A program made the translations under genes and the position numbers. A model generated the notes under the pieces. It was not told the origin of the DNA. It saw only the letters and a program-made list of their open reading frames with translations, and ran no database searches. From IMG/VR virus record IMGVR_UViG_3300044655_003531, positions 1 to 64,000 of that record: a DNA stretch of 64,000 nt, one strand, 5' to 3'. This document shows, in pieces, positions 19,557 to 55,246 of this stretch (position 1 is its first letter; each line of letters starts with the position of its first letter). This stretch comes from a virus. Lineage: Duplodnaviria > Heunggongvirae > Uroviricota > Caudoviricetes.

Positions 19557-20627
19557 CTATTCGTTTTTAAGTAAAAATCTGTTGCTGATGACCTTGAAAG
19601 AAATAGTTGTGTCCATGCTGCGAATGACCAATCCTTCCCTCTCGGCATTGGGGTTGAGAACAGATTTCCCTTCAGTCTGCTGTAAGAGTTCTTCGATGGT
19701 GTCTGGTAGAAGAAACTCAGTCCCGAGAATCGGTACGGTCTCAAATCCTAAGTCTTCCATAAGGGAGATAAAAGATCTGAGGTTGAATCTTTCCTGTTTA
19801 TCAATGTCAAAAGCATTGTAGAAACGAACGGTATGACCTTTGAGCTTGTAAGGATTCTTCTGAATTCCTTCCCCGATCAATTCACCCTGAATGCAAAGGT
19901 TAAGACCAGTATCCAGTAGCTTCTTCTTGATGTCCATTTCACGGGCCACTTTCCAGAAAGTGTTTTCCCGCTTAGGCCGTTCGATCCCATCATCGCACAG
20001 TTCCGTTCCTGACACAAATTCACCTGGTTCTGCCAACTCGAGATTTCTAGAGCAAACCCCAAATTCACCGTCTTTGACATAAAATGATGCGGAACTGCCG
20101 TCCAACTTTTCGGTTGCATAGAACTGGTGTTTACTGGTGATCTTCCATTCTTCGTATTCTCTAGACAAATTTTGGACCCTTTCCTCATCGGTTCGGCGGA
20201 GAAAAGAAGGAAAGTAGCCTTTTACTTTGCCAGCCAGTTCGGCGGGAATGGGTGGTTCGTATTTAATCACCCCAAGAATTTCGGTTACATCCATGCCAAG
20301 ATATACATTTCCCCTAACGGGAAGCACATTCAGGGGCATGAGCAATCCCTGGGATAATTCTCCTTTCAAACGGATGGTCTTGAGTCTAAATCCCTCGACA
20401 TCTCCCATTTTCTTGAAAGATGATTTTCGGAGAAACTCAAATTCATCCCGGACCGGAAGAAAAGAATCAATCTCAAAATAAACACAGGTATCTCCAGGTT
20501 TAAACTCTCCTTTCTTGGTTACCACCTGCCACCCATCAACAACAGCCAATTCGATGGCGTCTGCTCCTTTGATGGACTTGATCTCCTTGACCAATCTGAT
20601 GGAAGCTAATTTTCTGGTTTGTTCCAT
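19557..20627 (-). CDS. ATP-dependent RNA ligase-family nucleotidyltransferase (Rnl5/DraRnl-like, N-terminal OB-like domain)
   Basis: Motif I lysine in ATEKLDGSSASFY at about residue 170, preceded by an N-terminal domain as in DraRnl/NgrRnl. EGLVIRSMD resembles motif IV. Immediately upstream of the methyltransferase and the split pnk. Confidence 0.6.
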   Translation of the reverse strand: MEQTRKLASIRLVKEIKSIKGADAIELAVVDGWQVVTKKGEFKPGDTCVYFEIDSFLPVRDEFEFLRKSSFKKMGDVEGFRLKTIRLKGELSQGLLMPLNVLPVRGNVYLGMDVTEILGVIKYEPPIPAELAGKVKGYFPSFLRRTDEERVQNLSREYEEWKITSKHQFYATEKLDGSSASFYVKDGEFGVCSRNLELAEPGEFVSGTELCDDGIERPKRENTFWKVAREMDIKKKLLDTGLNLCIQGELIGEGIQKNPYKLKGHTVRFYNAFDIDKQERFNLRSFISLMEDLGFETVPILGTEFLLPDTIEELLQQTEGKSVLNPNAEREGLVIRSMDTTISFKVISNRFLLKNE

Positions 20628-20910: not shown

Positions 20911-21360
20911 CTAAACGCTATGCGGGATGTTAACTCGAACACAGGATTGAGACTGTCCCTCATTCATCAAAAAATTGTTGATGTATCCCATGATGTTAGC
21001 AGAGCCAATTGGATTGGCCGAATGGGTGTAAACTAAGGGGAAAATAATGCCCGATGATTTTTTCCCTACCCTGCCCTCGAGGGTGTCGTATTTATTCAGG
21101 TAGTAATCGACCAACCATTTTGCACAGTCCATCTCAGTCTTTTCAAGGATGTTTGAGTAGTTGAGCTCGTAATTAGGTTTAACATTGTTGAAATATTCCT
21201 CCATGACAGTATCACCCAGATCGTGGTCCAGTGAAATGATCTCAATGTTTTCTAATCCTATATCAGTGACAACTTTTACAAACTGCTCGTAATTTCGAAC
21301 AACTATCCAGTTTTCATCGTTTGGGGTTCGAATATCATCTAAGTAAATTCTTTTTTTCAT
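20911..21360 (-). CDS. hypothetical protein, paralog A of a duplicated family (149 aa); REC-like acidic motif pattern
   Basis: About 75% aa identity with 25260..25709. Conserved YLDDxRTP, ISLDHDLG, HSANPIGSANIM. Lies immediately downstream of the tRNA gene. Confidence 0.55.
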   Translation of the reverse strand: MKKRIYLDDIRTPNDENWIVVRNYEQFVKVVTDIGLENIEIISLDHDLGDTVMEEYFNNVKPNYELNYSNILEKTEMDCAKWLVDYYLNKYDTLEGRVGKKSSGIIFPLVYTHSANPIGSANIMGYINNFLMNEGQSQSCVRVNIPHSV

Positions 21361-21390
21361 TTTTTGTGAGCTATTTTTTGCATTCTTGTG

Positions 21391-21521
21391 TAGTCAGGAC
21401 AGGATTCGAACCTGTACGTGGGTTGAGTCCTTTGAGAATAACACCTTTCGGTCTCTTGAGTCTCTCCTGCAACATCCCCCACAGCTTTAGCTTACTTGCT
21501 TCTACCATTCCGCCACCTGAC
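21391..21521 (-). tRNA. atypical long tRNA gene (about 131 nt); canonical acceptor, Leu-like D arm and T arm; anticodon not assigned
   Basis: Minus-strand read AGTCAGG-TG-GCGGAATGGTAGA...ACAGGTTCGAATCCTGT-CCTGACT-A. 7-bp acceptor stem, GGTTCGAATCC T-loop, D-arm close to bacterial tRNA-Leu (GGCGGAATTGGTAGAC). About 45 nt more than a type II tRNA, so it contains an intron-like or extended insertion. Confidence 0.55.
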
Positions 21522-21602
21522 TATAATTCACCTGCCTTTTATCTCCTCATATATTCCGCCCAAAATTATTATTATAATTATAAGTAAAAACGTCTGCATA
21601 TT

Positions 21603-21893
21603 CTAAAAATGCTCCCCGAAGCCGTGTTGAGTGGCTACCAACTGTGGGTTTTCCAAGTAGCGACCAATCTCTTTGTATCCAGCCTCGATGCTTGTAAATG
21701 CAATACTCTTACATCCAACCTTGACGATACATCCTCTGTCTAGCGCGTGAATGCCAATCTCCCAGCGTTTAAGGTTTTCAATCCTTCTGCGTTGCTCTCC
21801 TTGTTCTTTGCTTTCGCATTGCTCTGTTGACTTTTCAAAGCACTGTGGCATTTCTCCGACAGGTTCTACTCTTAATGTTTGTTCTTCGTTCAT
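21603..21893 (-). CDS. hypothetical protein (96 aa)
   Basis: ORF flanked by the tRNA and the tRNA-like copy. Confidence 0.45.
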   Translation of the reverse strand: MNEEQTLRVEPVGEMPQCFEKSTEQCESKEQGEQRRRIENLKRWEIGIHALDRGCIVKVGCKSIAFTSIEAGYKEIGRYLENPQLVATQHGFGEHF

Positions 21894-21927
21894 TTTGATT
21901 GGGTTTAAATTGTTTTTATATTTTTAG

Positions 21928-22007
21928 TAGTCAGGACAGGTACTGCCCCTGTTGCTTGTTCTTTTGCTTTTATGCTCACACATGAGTTACTTTTACTCCA
22001 CCTGACT
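21928..22007 (-). ncRNA. degenerate tRNA-like element (80 nt) sharing acceptor and T-stem with the tRNA at 21391..21521
   Basis: Same 5' AGTCAGGTGG and 3' ACAGG...CCTGTCCTGACTA. T-loop GGCAGTA is non-canonical and no clean anticodon arm, so probably a decayed duplicate or structured RNA. Confidence 0.4.
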
Positions 22008-22012
22008 GTTTG

Positions 22013-22576
22013 TTAATCTAATTTACATTTTATTTTATCAAAATCCTTTGTTCCCAAATGAACTGAACTATCTACAGTCATATTAGAACGGGTTTCATCT
22101 TGTTTCCAAAATTCATGGCGAATAACTTGAACAATATCATAAGTTACTCTTGCACTTTCATCTACTACATCGGGATTGTAAATACCAAAACTTCCGCCAT
22201 TAGCAAAGTTTTCTTGTAAAAGCATGTTAGCAGCATTATGTAATATTTTATCTGCTTCATCTCTAATACTGTGGTATTTTTCATAATCAATAGATAATTT
22301 TACATCCCCAACATCAGTCCAAGTACGAATTTCTTCTCCATTACCCCAATGACCTTTGGTTTTAATGTAACCATCTCCAATTTCTATCACCTCACCACGT
22401 TCGGTACTATCACCAACTTCTATTTCTTTTTTAGGTCGGAGTTTATCCCGTAGAACATTGTAATATGTTGGATGGTCTTTAATTACCCATAATTGGCCGA
22501 TACCGATACGGGAGTACATATCTAACGCCTGTTGAATTAGTCTAAGTTGTTCGTTTGTAACTTCTAATGTTGCCAT
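22013..22576 (-). CDS. hypothetical protein (187 aa)
   Basis: ORF. Confidence 0.5.
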   Translation of the reverse strand: MATLEVTNEQLRLIQQALDMYSRIGIGQLWVIKDHPTYYNVLRDKLRPKKEIEVGDSTERGEVIEIGDGYIKTKGHWGNGEEIRTWTDVGDVKLSIDYEKYHSIRDEADKILHNAANMLLQENFANGGSFGIYNPDVVDESARVTYDIVQVIRHEFWKQDETRSNMTVDSSVHLGTKDFDKIKCKLD

Positions 22577-25259: not shown

Positions 25260-25709
25260 TCAAACAAAGTGTGGAATGTTCACACGAACACAAGATTGAG
25301 GTTGACCCTCATTCATCCAAAAATTATTAATGTATCCCATAATGTTGGCAGATCCGATTGGATTTGCCGAATGGGTATACACTTGTGGAAAAACGATACC
25401 AGATGATTTTTTTTCTGACCTACTTTTCTGAGTAAGGTAATTGTCAAGATAGTGATTGACCAACCACTTAGCACAATCCATTCCCGTCTTTTCAAGGATG
25501 TTATTGTAATCCAATTTGTAGTTTGGACTCACGTTATTGAAATATTCATTCATCGCTGTATCACCCAAATCGTGATCCAAGGAAATTACATCTATGTTTT
25601 CTAATCCTATATTTGTTACCGCTTCCACGAACTCGTCATAATTCCTCACAACCACCCAAATATCTTCTTTGGGGGTTCTAACATCATCTAAGTAAATTTG
25701 TTTTTTCAT
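25260..25709 (-). CDS. hypothetical protein, paralog B of the duplicated family (149 aa)
   Basis: About 75% aa and 80% nt identity with 20911..21360. Confidence 0.55.
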   Translation of the reverse strand: MKKQIYLDDVRTPKEDIWVVVRNYDEFVEAVTNIGLENIDVISLDHDLGDTAMNEYFNNVSPNYKLDYNNILEKTGMDCAKWLVNHYLDNYLTQKSRSEKKSSGIVFPQVYTHSANPIGSANIMGYINNFWMNEGQPQSCVRVNIPHFV

Positions 25710-31371: not shown

Positions 31372-32448
31372 TTAAATTTTATAAAATTGGGGTTTTATTA
31401 TTTTCCAAATTAATGAGGAGTATTCCTTACGATCGTACATTTTAAATAAAAGGGAAGGATTTTTGTATTTTTTTGCTTCTTCGGCAAAACTAGCTCTCCA
31501 CTTGAAATCTTTTATGCTCTTGAGGGTGTCGAAGATAGCCAAATACTCCTTCTCTACCTCCTGGTATTGACTTATCAGCTCGTTGGCATATCCTGTCACC
31601 TTTCCATAAAACTCATCGGGGGTGTCGACAAGGATGGCTGACATGTCACCTCCGGTAGACAAGACCTCCCAGATCGAAGTGGAAGTAACATTTGTCATTA
31701 TTCTGTGCAACCTGAGATACTCCTCAAATTTAATTTTCATCCGAAAGTTACCAGGTTGAAATCTAAGAACGAAACCCTCCTTGTTAACATCGTTCTGTGC
31801 CTTCAAACTACGGTATAACTGATCGGAAAAGTTAAAATGCTGCTTTGTTTGGGTGATGTCTTTATCAGAGACACCGTTGAACTTAAAGACATCACAGGCC
31901 ATAGACCAATGTAATTCTTCTTCGTTGGTTTGTTTGTAAAAATTATTGGGGACCGCAGATAAAAATATGACTTTTTCTTCCCCGTAATTTACAACGATAC
32001 GATTTTCCGGGTAGATGATCTCAACCAAGTACGCGTATTCTTTTATCCAACTATCCAACTTGTATTTGGATTGAACCATCTCTAATCCCTTTATTGCCTG
32101 GTCTGAGGTAAAAGAACCCCGGGTAGCCATAATCCATTCACCCTCGTAGTAAAACAGTATGCCTAAAGAGCCATCCGCCTTTTCCTGCACATACACACAG
32201 TCTCCTTGGGTTGGAATTTGTCCTTTGTTCACAATTTCTTCGTAGTTGAAAAACTTTGGAAAGGGTTTAACAAGGATCCCGCCGGTAACATCATCGGTAA
32301 TAAGACCTCTACACATAAGGGTCACATCGTCCCATAATCCATCGTATTGAACCTTTTCGCTGTAGTTCCAAATTGTCAGCGGAAAGCGAGGATGGGACTG
32401 GGAGTGGAGCAGGCCCCTTTCCTTATAATCTTCTAGTACGTTTCTCAT
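31372..32448 (-). CDS. rnlA: RNA ligase 1 (T4 Rnl1 family)
   Basis: LMCRGLIT/LECRGIMF, FPKFFNYEE/MEKFFNLNE, motif I EKADGSLGILFY/KEDGSLVSTY, VEIIYPENRIVVNY/FEFVAPTNRIVLAY all align with T4 gp63. Confidence 0.8.
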   Translation of the reverse strand: MRNVLEDYKERGLLHSQSHPRFPLTIWNYSEKVQYDGLWDDVTLMCRGLITDDVTGGILVKPFPKFFNYEEIVNKGQIPTQGDCVYVQEKADGSLGILFYYEGEWIMATRGSFTSDQAIKGLEMVQSKYKLDSWIKEYAYLVEIIYPENRIVVNYGEEKVIFLSAVPNNFYKQTNEEELHWSMACDVFKFNGVSDKDITQTKQHFNFSDQLYRSLKAQNDVNKEGFVLRFQPGNFRMKIKFEEYLRLHRIMTNVTSTSIWEVLSTGGDMSAILVDTPDEFYGKVTGYANELISQYQEVEKEYLAIFDTLKSIKDFKWRASFAEEAKKYKNPSLLFKMYDRKEYSSLIWKIIKPQFYKI

Positions 32449-54796: not shown

Positions 54797-55246
54797 TGGT
54801 GGAGCTGGGCGGATTCGAACCGCCGTCCTGCTAGGTAATTCCATGAAACTCGTTCACAGGCTTAGTCCATTTTTCTAAACAGACAAATCTTTACCTCCTA
54901 GTTTTTGACTGTGATAGGAGATAATCCACATCATCGATCCCTACAGCGATCTGAAGGGTATTGGACCGGAGCCCGCAGGGTTACTGAGGATCGACGGATT
55001 GTGTGGTACTGTTAACCCTTTTTCCCACCCTCGTGACTTTCTGTTCCTGGGTGTCACCCCCCGAGGTTTAGGCTGCCAAGGCAACTTCAACCGGCTCCGC
55101 TGAACCTAGTCCAGCCAAAGCAAAAAATGGATTTTCGCCATTTAAGAAGTACTTAGGATATTTAGGTGCTTCCAAAGCTAGCACCGCCTGCATCATGTCA
55201 AAGAACTTATGCCTCCAGTCGATTCCTTTCAGCCCCATTTTTTATA
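54797..55246 (-). ncRNA. ssrA: tmRNA (ssrA), about 450 nt
   Basis: 5' GGGGCTGAAAGGAATCGAC matches E. coli GGGGCUGAUUCUGGAUUCGAC. 3' GGACGGCGGTTCGAATCCGCCCAGCTCCACCA matches GGACGCGGGUUCAACUCCCGCCAGCUCCACCA. Internal tag frame ...GENPFF...AEPVEVALAA-TAA ends with the canonical ALAA stop. Confidence 0.8.

What the first reader, a model, noticed from the sequence alone, without database searches (positions are those of the whole stretch)
20911..22007. Atypical 131-nt tRNA gene, a decayed tRNA-like twin, and a small gene between them
21391..21521 has a perfect acceptor stem, tRNA-Leu-like D arm and canonical GGTTCGAATCC T-arm. It is about 45 nt too long even for a type II tRNA, which implies an intron or an unusual extra arm.

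21928..22007 repeats the same acceptor and T-stem. It has a non-canonical T-loop and a CTCAtgtgTGAG hairpin where the anticodon arm should be.

A 96-aa gene lies between the two. A member of a duplicated protein family lies directly downstream.

Phage tRNAs with insertions can serve as nuclease-resistant replacements or decoys for host anticodon nucleases. The degenerate copy could be a tRNA-like regulatory RNA or a former integration duplicate.
Basis: partly seen in the sequence, partly recalled or inferred. Interest (0 to 1): 0.6.

Follow-up and report, generated by a model that had tools for sequence, protein, structure and literature searches.

The report
Phage tRNA-shaped RNAs without anticodons
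The "over-long tRNA" and its "decayed twin" are two intact members of large, apparently undescribed phage RNA families that keep a tRNA's top half but replace the anticodon region with structured inserts, so they cannot decode and probably use the tRNA frame as a processing and stability scaffold.

Summary
TL1 (21522..21391, 132 nt) has a 7-bp acceptor stem, a tRNA-Leu-like D arm, a canonical T arm and A73. It passes the Rfam tRNA threshold only by skipping 65 nt, and ARAGORN rejects it.

TL2 (22007..21928, 80 nt) shares TL1's acceptor and T stems.

The interpretation mostly fails.
- TL1 has no intron and no extra arm on a decoding tRNA. Its frame recurs in at least 120 viral contigs, but the 25-120 nt between D arm and T arm is unrelated between lineages. 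0 of 124 members have an anticodon arm.
- The inserts fold better than shuffles and covary within sub-families.
- TL2 is not decayed. It belongs to a conserved cloverleaf family of 28 distinct sequences, 97.9% paired, with six compensated pairs.

Both families carry the same flank signature as canonical tRNAs in the same phages. The frame is almost absent from bacterial genomes, and I found it in no cultured phage.

My best reading is a set of non-decoding, tRNA-scaffolded RNAs matured by the tRNA pathway. TL1-type members are probably leucylatable. What the inserts do is unknown; a decoy or sponge role is plausible but untested. I found no published description.

The parts
21391..21522 (-). 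TL1: a 132-nt tRNA-Leu-framed RNA gene without an anticodon arm.
   Evidence: Rfam tRNA 31.5 bits with a 65-nt skip. ARAGORN makes no call. It belongs to a frame family present in at least 120 viral contigs.
21516..21522 (-). TL1 acceptor stem, 5' strand AGUCAGG, followed by U8 and G9 at 21515-21514.
   Evidence: Pairs 7/7 with 21392-21398. Relatives carry compensated variants such as AGGUAAG/UUUACCU and GGUUGGG/CCCAACC.
21498..21513 (-). TL1 D arm GCGGAAUGGUAGAAGC, tRNA-Leu type, with A14, A15 and G18G19.
   Evidence: Family consensus is GGCGGAATTGGTAGACGC. The window copy has A instead of C23, so its D stem is weakened (NC marks).
21416..21497 (-). TL1 insert: 82 nt replacing the anticodon arm and variable arm. 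Predicted as a short hairpin plus a long hairpin closed by GUGGG/CCCAC with an inner GAAA tetraloop.
   Evidence: Fold; z is only about -1 for this copy alone. No homologue among about 2 Mb of related loci. Identical in L242 and L243. No complementarity elsewhere in the window beyond chance.
21399..21415 (-). TL1 T arm ACAGG-UUCGAAU-CCUGU. U48 lies just 5' of it, at 21416.
   Evidence: T-stem changes in relatives are compensated or give G-U wobble. U48 is conserved at 1.67 bits.
21391..21398 (-). TL1 acceptor 3' strand CCUGACU plus discriminator A73. The trailer is CAC, so CCA is not encoded.
   Evidence: In the family, C follows the discriminator in 98% of elements, against 99% for canonical tRNAs of the same phages.
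21928..22007 (-). TL2: an 80-nt cloverleaf RNA of a second conserved family. It has the same acceptor and T stems as TL1, a D-like arm GAGU-AAAAGUA-ACUC, a central stem UGU/ACA, a small variable hairpin and the T loop GGCAGUA.
   Evidence: 97.3 bits to the family model R1. The alignment of 28 distinct sequences is 97.9% paired, with 6 pairs changed on both sides, reached by 0 of 500 shuffles.
21603..21893 (-). 96-aa ORF between TL2 and TL1.
   Evidence: 117 homologues, all unnamed. It is flanked by frame-bearing elements in several lineages. The AlphaFold2 model has a disordered N-terminus followed by helix, three strands and two helices, with no significant fold match.
20911..21360 (-). cREC_REC protein, 149 aa, predicted to process cyclic phosphates. 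Its start codon lies 30 nt downstream of TL1. Paralogue at 25260-25709.
   Evidence: Pfam PF20274, E 5e-18 and 8e-20. The functional prediction comes from PMC7824862.
19557..20627 (-). RNA ligase with PHA02142 OB and RNA_ligase domains. Listed as context only.
   Evidence: Pfam and PHROG hits. A second, T4 Rnl1-like ligase lies at 31372-32448.
22013..22576 (-). 187-aa ORF upstream of TL2. Listed as context only.
   Evidence: Relatives at 93% identity (L223, L224) carry four frame-bearing elements nearby.

Best explanation
TL1 and TL2 are functional, non-decoding, tRNA-shaped RNA genes of a jumbo phage. The host is probably a member of the Bacteroidota.

TL1 belongs to a very large phage family. 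Its constant frame comprises the acceptor stem AGUCAGG/CCUGACU, U8, a tRNA-Leu-type D arm, U48, a canonical T arm and A73. Every lineage has a different structured insert of 25-120 nt in place of the anticodon and variable arms. TL2 belongs to a second family that keeps the same acceptor and T helix but has its own conserved D-like loop, core and T loop, plus one small variable hairpin.

Proposed mechanism:
1. The elements are co-transcribed with their neighbours.
2. RNase P cuts after the conserved U at position -1.
3. The 3' trailer is trimmed and CCA is completed, as for the phage's ordinary tRNAs.
4. The frame folds into the tRNA L-shaped core, which gives stability.
5. TL1-type frames keep exactly the elements that bacterial LeuRS needs, so they are probably leucylated.
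6. The insert projects from where the anticodon arm would be and acts as the effector, most plausibly a decoy or sponge for a host factor in phage-host conflict.

Shown here: the architecture, the absence of an anticodon arm, selection on RNA structure, tRNA-like flank signals, and restriction to phages. Inferred only: processing, charging and the effector role.
For: Family and frame:
- Those contigs gave 114 distinct sequences of 77-170 nt with the same 3' frame and unrelated middles. Clustering gave 145 clusters among about 177 sequences.
- Information content is near 2 bits across both frame halves and about 0.1 bit inside the insert, with U48 retained.

No decoding capacity:
- ARAGORN rejects 107 of 124 elements.
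- Its calls are no more frequent than on shuffled middles: 16 of 133 real against 12-20 shuffled. With introns allowed the figures are 107 against 92-108.
- 0 of 124 have a canonical anticodon arm at the canonical place.

Selection at the RNA level:
- Middles fold better than dinucleotide shuffles: mean z -0.82, n = 105, p = 2e-11.
- Compensatory changes occur within sub-families. In L001 against L172, the stem CGGG/CCCG becomes CUGG/CCAG and the pseudoknot AUGG/CCAU becomes CGGG/CCCG. L195 against L223 shows more. The L094 group has 3 compensated pairs.
- T-stem and acceptor variants are compensated or wobble-compatible.
- The TL2 cloverleaf is 97.9% paired. Six pairs changed on both sides, reached by 0 of 500 shuffles and by 0-1 in the slid controls.

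tRNA-type maturation signals: the base at -1 is T in 82% and C follows the discriminator in 98%, with trailer CAA or CTA. Canonical tRNAs of the same phages show 71% and 99%. The elements lie in or near tRNA arrays.

Phage-specific: only 5 hits in 185,579 bacterial and archaeal species genomes, all on short contigs of metagenome-assembled genomes.

LeuRS elements: A73, U8-A14, G18-U55 and G19-C56 are critical, and the anticodon arm is dispensable for aminoacylation (PMC2377443). All of these are conserved in the frame.
Against: - There are no expression, processing or charging data.
- The window's TL1 has a weakened D stem and only a marginal Rfam score of 31.5 bits. Its own insert is not significantly more stable than shuffles (z -1.0 to -1.2). 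It has no diverged homologue, so its fold is untested.
- No conserved protein partner or neighbour was found for either family.
- No target of any insert was identified.
- The inserts match no Rfam family at gathering score.
- TL2 lacks G18G19 and a T-loop motif, so it cannot share a LeuRS-dependent function.
- Sequence-level constancy of the acceptor and T helix is not explained by a scaffold role alone.
Confidence: 0.55

Rival explanations
1. TL1 is a decoding tRNA (Leu) interrupted by an intron or carrying an exceptionally long extra arm. After splicing it would replace a host tRNA destroyed by an anticodon nuclease.
For: - It passes the Rfam tRNA gathering score.
- Its D arm is Leu-type and it has A73.
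- Two RNA ligases and cREC proteins that could seal a cut RNA lie nearby.
- In more distant phages a normal tRNA-Leu(UAA) sits directly upstream of the cREC gene.
Against: - There is no group I or other intron family hit, even at E up to 5, and 82 nt is far below group I intron size.
- No conserved exon-like anticodon stem flanks the insert, although the rest of the frame is nearly invariant.
- 0 of 124 have an anticodon arm at the canonical place. Anywhere in the insert the count is 4, against 2.8 +/- 1.7 in shuffles.
- ARAGORN calls with introns allowed match the shuffled controls and give about 20 different isotypes.
- Some members have inserts of normal length (33 nt) that form a pseudoknot instead of an anticodon arm.
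Confidence: 0.04
2. TL1 and TL2 are decaying pseudogenes or duplication remnants of a phage tRNA gene and have no function.
For: - The window's TL1 has a D-stem mismatch and a marginal score.
- TL2 lacks canonical D and T loops.
- The window has no canonical tRNA gene.
Against: - Both frame halves are conserved at nearly 2 bits per position across phages whose proteins are only 60-75% identical.
- TL2 is conserved in 28 distinct sequences whose flanks are unrelated, and it shows compensatory changes.
- The inserts are structured and covary.
- The phage gene identical to the window's 96-aa ORF occurs on 38 contigs. The two fetched (L242, L243) carry TL1 and TL2 unchanged.
Confidence: 0.03
3. 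The constant frame matters mainly as DNA. It would serve as a short portable homology block, or a homing-endonuclease target, that drives mosaic recombination in phage tRNA regions. The RNA would be incidental.
For: - Breakpoints of homology fall inside the frames. L003 and L004 share the left flank and the 5' frame, then diverge.
- The window and L237-L241 share the 3' frame, the spacer and the 96-aa gene, but carry different elements upstream.
- Arrays hold up to 6 frame copies.
- HNH genes lie beside some copies.
- The helix is constant in sequence, not merely in structure.
Against: - Where the frame does vary, stems change in a compensated or wobble-compatible way.
- Tertiary-interaction bases of tRNA (U8, A14, A15, G18G19, U48, UUC) are the ones conserved.
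- Flank signals match those of real tRNAs.
- Recombination at the frames can simply be a consequence of their conservation.
Confidence: 0.1
4. The elements are decoys specifically for tRNA-targeting nucleases or tRNA-end-modifying toxins, working together with the adjacent RNA repair genes.
For: - In the window they lie among two cREC genes and two RNA ligases.
- Jumbo phages combine tRNAs and RNA repair against host RNases (PMC7824862).
- The hyperdiversity and accessory-region location fit an arms race.
Against: - No anticodon-loop mimic exists to attract an anticodon nuclease.
- The linkage to RNA repair is not general. cREC is present in 6 of 125 loci and the window's RNA ligase in 0 of 125.
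- No host system is identified.
Confidence: 0.15
5. The elements are miniature tmRNA-like molecules. A charged tRNA-like domain would enter stalled ribosomes and the insert would supply a short tag or a stop.
For: - The topology matches tmRNA, with the insert between the D region and the T arm.
- Some inserts form pseudoknots.
- The phage carries its own tmRNA, so it does manipulate ribosome rescue.
Against: - The Rfam tmRNA model hits only 54797-55236.
- There is no G3:U70 alanine identity; the pair is U3-A70.
- The reading frame through TL1's insert has no stop before the T arm (read directly from the sequence).
- The inserts are largely base-paired and share no tag-like region.
Confidence: 0.03

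Closest known systems
Phage T4 stable RNAs C and D (species 1 and 2 RNA, rnaC and rnaD)
   Same: They are small stable RNAs of unknown function encoded inside a phage tRNA gene cluster. rnaC ends in a perfect tRNA T arm, CCGGG-UUCGAAU-CCCGG, followed by an acceptor-like 3' strand that pairs with an internal segment. From my own memory, unverified here: they are matured by tRNA-processing enzymes.
   Different: No sequence relationship was seen. T4 rnaC has a 5' extension and only a weak tRNA-like score (17.5 bits to tRNA-Sec). There is no constant frame with interchangeable inserts and no multi-copy, hyperdiverse family.
tmRNA
   Same: A tRNA-like acceptor and T-arm domain whose anticodon region is replaced by a large structured insert with pseudoknots. 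It is processed and charged like a tRNA.
   Different: tmRNA has alanine identity (G3:U70), no D stem, a tag reading frame and a conserved architecture. The Rfam tmRNA model matches only the separate gene at 54797-55236.
Bacterial and phage YrlA Y RNAs (tRNA-like module plus Ro60-binding module)
   Same: Non-coding RNAs with tRNA-like D arm, T arm and acceptor that are recognised by tRNA enzymes and associated with RNA repair and decay loci (PMC4201824).
   Different: In YrlA the 'acceptor' is an internal closed stem-loop and the RNA ends form the Ro60-binding helix. YrlA genes sit next to a TROVE/Ro60 gene. Here the ends form the acceptor stem. No TROVE protein is among the 39 window ORFs scanned, which include all three of 450 aa or more. 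No Rfam Y RNA hit was found.
Engineered 'tRNA scaffold' for recombinant RNA expression, in which the anticodon stem is replaced by the RNA of interest
   Same: The design principle is the same: the tRNA acceptor, D and T arms are retained so that the cell processes and stabilises a foreign RNA grafted at the anticodon stem. The method is used in PMC3753655 (listed); the rest of this description rests on my own knowledge.
   Different: That is a laboratory construct. Here the architecture is natural, phage-encoded and massively diversified.
Canonical type II tRNA-Leu
   Same: Acceptor, D-arm sequence GGCGGAAUUGGUAGACGC, A15-U48, T loop and A73.
   Different: There is no anticodon arm and no regular variable arm. 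The acceptor sequence is essentially absent from bacterial genomes.

Membership tests
Canonical tRNA (Rfam RF00005) | 7-bp acceptor stem with a discriminator base. | tested here: met
   TL1 and TL2 both have AGUCAGG/CCUGACU plus A.
Canonical tRNA (Rfam RF00005) | T arm with the UUCRANY loop, and a D loop with A14 and G18G19 forming the elbow. | tested here: inconclusive
   TL1 meets this, although its D stem has only two Watson-Crick pairs. TL2 does not: its T loop is GGCAGUA and its D loop is AAAAGUA.
Canonical tRNA (Rfam RF00005) | Anticodon arm: 5-bp stem and 7-nt loop with U33 and R37. | tested here: not met
   ARAGORN makes no call. The Rfam alignment skips 65 nt. 0 of 124 family members have one at the canonical place. 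Calls equal the shuffled controls.
Canonical tRNA (Rfam RF00005) | Score at or above the curated gathering threshold. | tested here: inconclusive
   TL1 scores 31.5 bits against 29, reached only through a local skip. TL2 has no hit at E up to 5.
Intron-containing tRNA (group I, or protein-spliced) | A group I catalytic core within the insert. | tested here: not met
   No Intron_gpI or other ribozyme hit in the window at E up to 5, nor in 148 kb of related loci at gathering score. The insert is 82 nt.
Intron-containing tRNA (group I, or protein-spliced) | Exon halves that reconstitute an anticodon stem-loop next to the insert. | tested here: not met
   Information content drops to about 0.1 bit immediately after the D arm and before U48. 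ARAGORN in intron mode gives random isotypes at the same rate as on shuffles.
tmRNA | tRNA-Ala-like domain (G3:U70), a tag reading frame with a resume codon and a stop, and a match to the Rfam model. | tested here: not met
   The pair at 3:70 is U-A. RF00023 hits only 54797-55236. There is no stop in frame within the TL1 insert (sequence).
YrlA / Y RNA | Encoded next to a Ro60 (TROVE) gene, with the RNA ends forming the Ro-binding helix and the tRNA-like 'acceptor' closed by a loop. | tested here: not met
   The ends form the acceptor stem. No TROVE domain is among the 39 window ORFs scanned. The features are those given in PMC4201824.
T4-type stable RNAs of phage tRNA clusters (rnaC, rnaD) | A non-tRNA stable RNA located in a phage tRNA gene cluster, with a tRNA-like T arm and 3' end. 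| tested here: inconclusive
   Relatives lie in tRNA arrays, but the window has no canonical tRNA. T4 rnaC has the T arm. Stability and processing are not testable here, and no sequence homology is evident.
LeuRS substrates (leucine-accepting RNAs) | A73 plus an intact tertiary core (U8-A14, G18-U55, G19-C56). The anticodon arm is dispensable. | tested here: met
   The sequence elements are present in TL1 and conserved in the family. The criteria come from PMC2377443. TL2 lacks them.
LeuRS substrates (leucine-accepting RNAs) | Actual aminoacylation with leucine. | not testable with these tools
   This needs an in vitro charging assay or charged-tRNA sequencing.

The most novel reading that the evidence does not exclude
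Phages of freshwater Bacteroidota may carry a natural 'tRNA-scaffold display' system. A constant tRNA-Leu top half, probably leucine-chargeable, would guarantee maturation and stability. It would present hundreds to thousands of different fast-turning-over structured RNA modules. These would act as an RNA-based counter-defence or host-takeover repertoire of decoys, sponges or aptamers, the RNA counterpart of phage anti-defence protein arsenals. TL2-type RNAs would form a conserved companion class using the same acceptor and T helix.
Probability: 0.22. Interest if true: 0.9.

Novelty: new variant of a known kind. Interest (0 to 1): 0.7.

Why it matters
Annotation: tRNA finders either miss these genes or call them tRNAs of undetermined or random isotype. 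That contaminates phage tRNA censuses and codon-usage arguments.

Biology: the family would be a new and very large class of tRNA-derived non-coding RNAs in phages. It would show that the tRNA-scaffold trick used in the laboratory was invented in nature.

Experiments it makes possible:
- What reads a fixed acceptor and T helix?
- Are anticodon-less RNAs charged by LeuRS in vivo, and what does a charged non-decoder do?
- What do the variable inserts bind?

The constant frame gives a simple probe for pulling out the whole repertoire from metagenomes and metatranscriptomes.

Tried and rejected
- ARAGORN with intron, organellar and relaxed settings gave only forced, inconsistent calls on TL1: Phe(aaa) with a 47-nt 'intron', and an opposite-strand Lys.
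- The Rfam scan at E up to 5 over the window, and at gathering score over 148 kb of related loci, found no ribozyme, riboswitch or Y RNA family in the inserts.
- The antisense or guide idea failed. The TL1 and TL2 middles have only chance-level matches (12 nt or less) to either strand of the 64-kb window.
- Searches for a conserved protein partner found none. ORF clustering around 172 TL1-type and 14 TL2 loci gave no family present in more than 9 loci. The window's neighbours are rarely linked to these elements.
- Motif search in the middles gave only weak k-mer enrichments (AGTCC, AATCC, GGTAA) and no common core.
- Promoter and terminator scans around the locus were at chance level. The Bacteroidota -7 motif TAnnTTTG occurs within 20 nt upstream of only 13 of 174 elements, and one lies 39 nt upstream of TL1. 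I treat this as inconclusive.
- No cultured phage in GenBank/INPHARED has TL2 or the two-part frame.
- No diverged homologue of TL1's own insert was found, so its fold could not be tested by covariation.
- Six literature searches for a description of such a family returned nothing relevant.
- My first attempt to score acceptor covariation by fuzzy matching was mis-registered and I discarded it. Only the T-stem table is used.
Full report
**1. The observation**

All genes around the finding are on the minus strand.

TL1, read on that strand, is 21522..21391 and 132 nt long. From 5' to 3' it reads:
- acceptor AGUCAGG, then UG;
- D arm GCGGAAUGGUAGAAGC;
- an 82-nt middle;
- T arm ACAGG-UUCGAAU-CCUGU;
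- acceptor strand CCUGACU and discriminator A.

Rfam's tRNA model scores it 31.5 bits (gathering score 29, E 0.013). It reaches that score only by jumping over 65 nt where the anticodon arm should be. ARAGORN finds no tRNA in the whole 64-kb window.

TL2 (22007..21928, 80 nt) shares three stretches with TL1: the first 10 nt, the T-stem 5' strand, and the last 14 nt (CCTGTCCTGACTAC). Its T loop is GGCAGUA, and its D loop has no GG. The 13-mer CCTGTCCTGACTA occurs exactly twice in the window.

The 96-aa ORF (21893..21603) lies between the two elements. A 149-aa ORF (21360..20911) follows TL1 and has a paralogue at 25709..25260.

**2. Context**

The 149-aa proteins are cREC_REC domains (PF20274). 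Iyer et al. predicted these to process 2',3'-cyclic phosphate ends and found them linked to RNA ligases in jumbo phages.

A PHA02142-type RNA ligase follows at 20627..19557. A T4 Rnl1-like ligase lies at 31372..32448. A tmRNA gene lies at 55236..54797. The rest of the window looks like a jumbo-phage accessory region: a ClpB-like AAA+ protein, ATP-grasp enzymes and glycosyltransferases.

The 96-aa protein occurs unchanged on 38 contigs, the longest 267 kb. No cultured phage is close at the DNA level.

**3. TL1 is one member of a huge family with a constant frame and a variable middle**

Relatives that carry the 96-aa gene have the same frame just downstream of it, but with unrelated middles of 33, 83 and 95 nt.

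Nearly all of them also have the 3' frame (T)ACAGGTTCGAATCCTGTCCTGACTA. This gave 114 distinct sequences of 77-170 nt. Adding other elements from the same loci gives about 177 sequences that fall into 145 clusters by their middles.

Information content is close to 2 bits per position across both frame halves. It drops to about 0.1 bit directly after the D arm and rises again at the U just before the T stem, which is U48.

The conserved bases are the ones that build the tRNA core: U8, A14, A15, G18G19, U48, UUC and A73.

The frame is essentially phage-specific. There are only 5 matches in one genome each of 185,579 bacterial and archaeal species. All five are on short contigs of metagenome-assembled genomes (Flavobacterium twice, Chitinophagaceae, Neisseriaceae, Peregrinibacteria). 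No cultured phage has the two-part frame or TL2.

**4. It does not decode and has no intron**

- ARAGORN rejects 107 of 124 elements. The few it calls have scattered or undefined anticodons.
- On 133 TL1-type elements it. On the same elements with shuffled middles it.
- With introns allowed it real against 92-108 shuffled, with about 20 isotypes.
- An explicit test for a 5-bp stem with a 7-nt loop, U33 and R37 at the canonical position finds 0 of 124. Anywhere in the middle it finds 4, against 2.8 +/- 1.7 in shuffles.
- No group I intron or other ribozyme or riboswitch family is detected in the window (E up to 5) or in 148 kb of related loci at gathering score.
- Some members have a middle of normal length (33 nt) that forms a stem plus pseudoknot instead of an anticodon arm.

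**5. The middles are selected as RNA structure**

As a population, 105 non-redundant middles fold better than dinucleotide shuffles: mean z -0.82, p = 2e-11.

Within the few sub-families with more than one member, changes are compensatory.
- L001 against L172: the stem CGGG/CCCG becomes CUGG/CCAG, and the loop-to-tail pairing AUGG/CCAU becomes CGGG/CCCG.
- L195 against L223 and L224: two helices carry several compensated pairs.
- The L094 group, together with the element downstream of the 96-aa gene in L237: three compensated pairs.

The window's own middle has no diverged homologue. L242 and L243 are identical to it. Taken alone, its predicted long hairpin (GUGGG...CCCAC, with an inner GAAA loop) is not significantly more stable than shuffles. 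Its particular fold therefore remains a prediction.

**6. The frame is selected as RNA and is flanked like a tRNA**

Where the T stem varies, it is either compensated or changed on one side to a G-U wobble.
- Compensated: GUAGG/CCUAC, GCAGG/CCUGC, ACAAG/CUUGU, ACUGG/CCAGU, GAUGG/CCAUC.
- Wobble: GCAGG/CCUGU, AUAGG/CCUGU, ACGGG/CCUGU.

Relatives with the same D arm and long middles have compensated acceptor variants: AGGUAAG/UUUACCU, AGUCAAG/UUUGACU and GGUUGGG/CCCAACC.

The flanks match those of canonical tRNAs in the same phages:

| Feature | Frame-bearing elements | Canonical tRNAs |
|---|---|---|
| Base at -1 is T | 82% | 71% |
| C after the discriminator | 98% | 99% |
| Commonest trailers | CAA, CTA | CAA, CTA |

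CCA is not encoded. The elements lie on the same strand as their neighbours, often in arrays of up to six. They are interleaved with ordinary tRNAs and with other insert-bearing tRNA-like genes that have different acceptors. No promoter or terminator signal stands out near TL1 or TL2.

These features fit co-transcription followed by excision through the tRNA maturation pathway. That step is inferred, not shown.

**7. TL2 is a conserved RNA, not a wreck**

Pattern searches found the GGCRGUA T-loop variant and the TL2 core in viral and metagenome contigs with unrelated flanks.

The alignment has 28 distinct sequences with 74% mean column identity. They support a cloverleaf made of:
- a 7-bp acceptor stem;
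- a 4-bp D-like stem with loop AAAAGUA;
- a 3-bp central stem enclosing GUGA, a variable hairpin of 12-37 nt and AAAAGA;
- a 5-bp T stem.

Of all cells, 97.9% are paired. Six pairs changed on both sides, which 0 of 500 shuffles reach and the slid controls reach 0-1 times. These include the acceptor variants AGCUAAG/CUUAGCU, AGUCAGU/ACUGACU and AGUUAGG/CCUAACU.

The window copy carries the compensated UGU/ACA version of the central stem and scores 97.3 bits against the family model.

TL2 often lies within 200-700 nt of another element with the same acceptor.

At the position of TL2, closer relatives of the window (96-aa protein 83-86% identical) carry TL1-type elements with other middles. Homology resumes inside the 3' frame.

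**8. What it most likely is and does**

Shown:
- two families of phage RNA genes that keep a tRNA top half;
- no anticodon arm;
- selection for RNA structure;
- the flank signature of tRNAs.

Inferred:
- maturation by RNase P, 3' trimming and CCA addition;
- an L-shaped core that stabilises the RNA;
- for TL1-type frames, aminoacylation by LeuRS.

The reasoning for LeuRS is as follows. In bacteria it relies on A73 and the tertiary core (U8-A14, G18-U55, G19-C56) and does not need the anticodon arm (PMC2377443). Those are exactly the parts that are conserved. [quoted passage not shown]

The architecture matches the laboratory 'tRNA scaffold', in which an RNA of interest replaces the anticodon stem. 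I therefore read the insert as the working part and the frame as the vehicle. The extreme turnover of inserts and the accessory-region location suggest a role in phage-host conflict, as decoys or sponges. I could identify no partner, target or conserved neighbour. The strict sequence constancy of the acceptor and T helix, shared by TL1-type RNAs, TL2-type RNAs and a few apparently normal tRNAs (for example Lys-UUU in L099 and L165), remains unexplained.

**9. Rivals**

- An intron-bearing or expanded decoding tRNA is contradicted by sections 3 and 4.
- Pseudogenes are contradicted by sections 3 and 5-7.
- A purely DNA-level role, as a recombination linker or homing target, has some support. 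Homology breakpoints lie inside frames and there are occasional HNH neighbours. It does not explain compensated stems or the conservation of tertiary bases.
- A dedicated anticodon-nuclease decoy lacks any anticodon-loop mimic, and the repair-gene linkage is not general.
- A mini-tmRNA lacks alanine identity, a tag frame and a model match.

**10. Comparison with what is known**

The closest natural analogues are T4 RNA C and D, tmRNA and YrlA Y RNAs.
- T4 RNA C and D are stable RNAs of unknown function in the T4 tRNA cluster. I verified that rnaC ends in a perfect T arm with an acceptor-like pairing.
- tmRNA and YrlA Y RNAs are described.

Each fails at least one defining feature; the membership table gives the details.

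Rfam has no family for either element beyond the marginal tRNA hit. A large survey of candidate structured RNAs in IMG/VR mentions tRNA-like candidates only generically. Six full-text searches found no description. Within the limits of those searches, the two families appear to be undescribed.

**11. Verdict**

The feature is real and more interesting than proposed, but for different reasons. It is not an odd tRNA with a broken twin. It is two members of widespread phage families of anticodon-less, tRNA-framed structured RNAs. The structural classification is solid, and the function is open.

Noticed in passing
window 54797-55236 (-): A phage-encoded tmRNA gene: Rfam RF00023 at 72.1 bits, E 4e-26. 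ARAGORN does not detect it. I could not resolve the tag reading frame from the alignment.
   Followed up: partly
window 31372-32448 (-) and 25260-25709 (-): A second RNA ligase (T4 Rnl1-like, PF09511) and a second cREC_REC protein. The phage therefore carries at least two ligases and two cREC genes within 12 kb.
   Followed up: partly
L173 1-1560; L004 3437-3530; L001 1235-1305: Dense arrays of tRNA-shaped genes with long inserts and acceptor stems other than AGUCAGG. They are interleaved with AGUCAGG elements and ordinary tRNAs, so the phenomenon is broader than one frame.
   Followed up: partly
L181 (127-nt element), L173 843-976, L214 (137-nt element), L237 upstream of the 96-aa gene: Some family members carry a second insertion of about 20-35 nt inside the D loop, between GGCGAAA and GGTAGACGC.
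   Followed up: no
L195, L027, L213, L231 (acceptors TGTAAGG, TGGTAGG, TGTAGAG): A separate class with a regular-looking anticodon stem, a loop UUGUCUC and a 35-80-nt hairpin in the variable-arm position.
   Followed up: no
L173 3220-3290: A 71-nt element with a compensated acceptor (AGUCUAG/CUAGACU) and TL2-like D and T loops (AAAAGAA, AGCAUUA), but a regular anticodon arm (CAACA-CUGUCAC-UGUUG, GUC). It hints that the unusual loop pair can coexist with a decoder-like arm.
   Followed up: no
L200 (102-nt element), L097 (88-nt and 102-nt elements): Some inserts contain a second T-arm-like hairpin, for example UUCGG-UUCGAAU-CCGAA. This is a T-loop module nested inside the tRNA frame.
   Followed up: no
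L099 13031-13101, L165 4544-4614, L204 (73-nt element): Apparently normal class I tRNAs, Lys(UUU) and Ile(UAU), that use the very same acceptor stem and T arm as TL1 and TL2. One helix sequence is thus shared by decoders and non-decoders.
   Followed up: partly
L028 2913-2999, L030 148-234, L083 2900-2986: In more distant cREC-bearing phages a canonical tRNA-Leu(UAA) sits immediately upstream of the cREC gene, at the position TL1 occupies in the window. L083 also has a tmRNA next to it.
   Followed up: partly
Middles of the TL1-type family (about 100 non-redundant sequences): Mild enrichment of the k-mers AGTCC and TAAGTCC, AATCC and AAATCC, and GGTAA and GTAAAA (up to 20 of 102 sequences). 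No common core and no explanation.
   Followed up: partly
L236 (phage T4, NC_000866 70908-71046): T4 rnaC (species 1 RNA) ends in a perfect T arm, CCGGGTTCGAATCCCGG. This is followed by a 3' strand that pairs with an internal ACGGAACG segment, giving a tRNA-like 3' domain of about 93 nt.
   Followed up: partly
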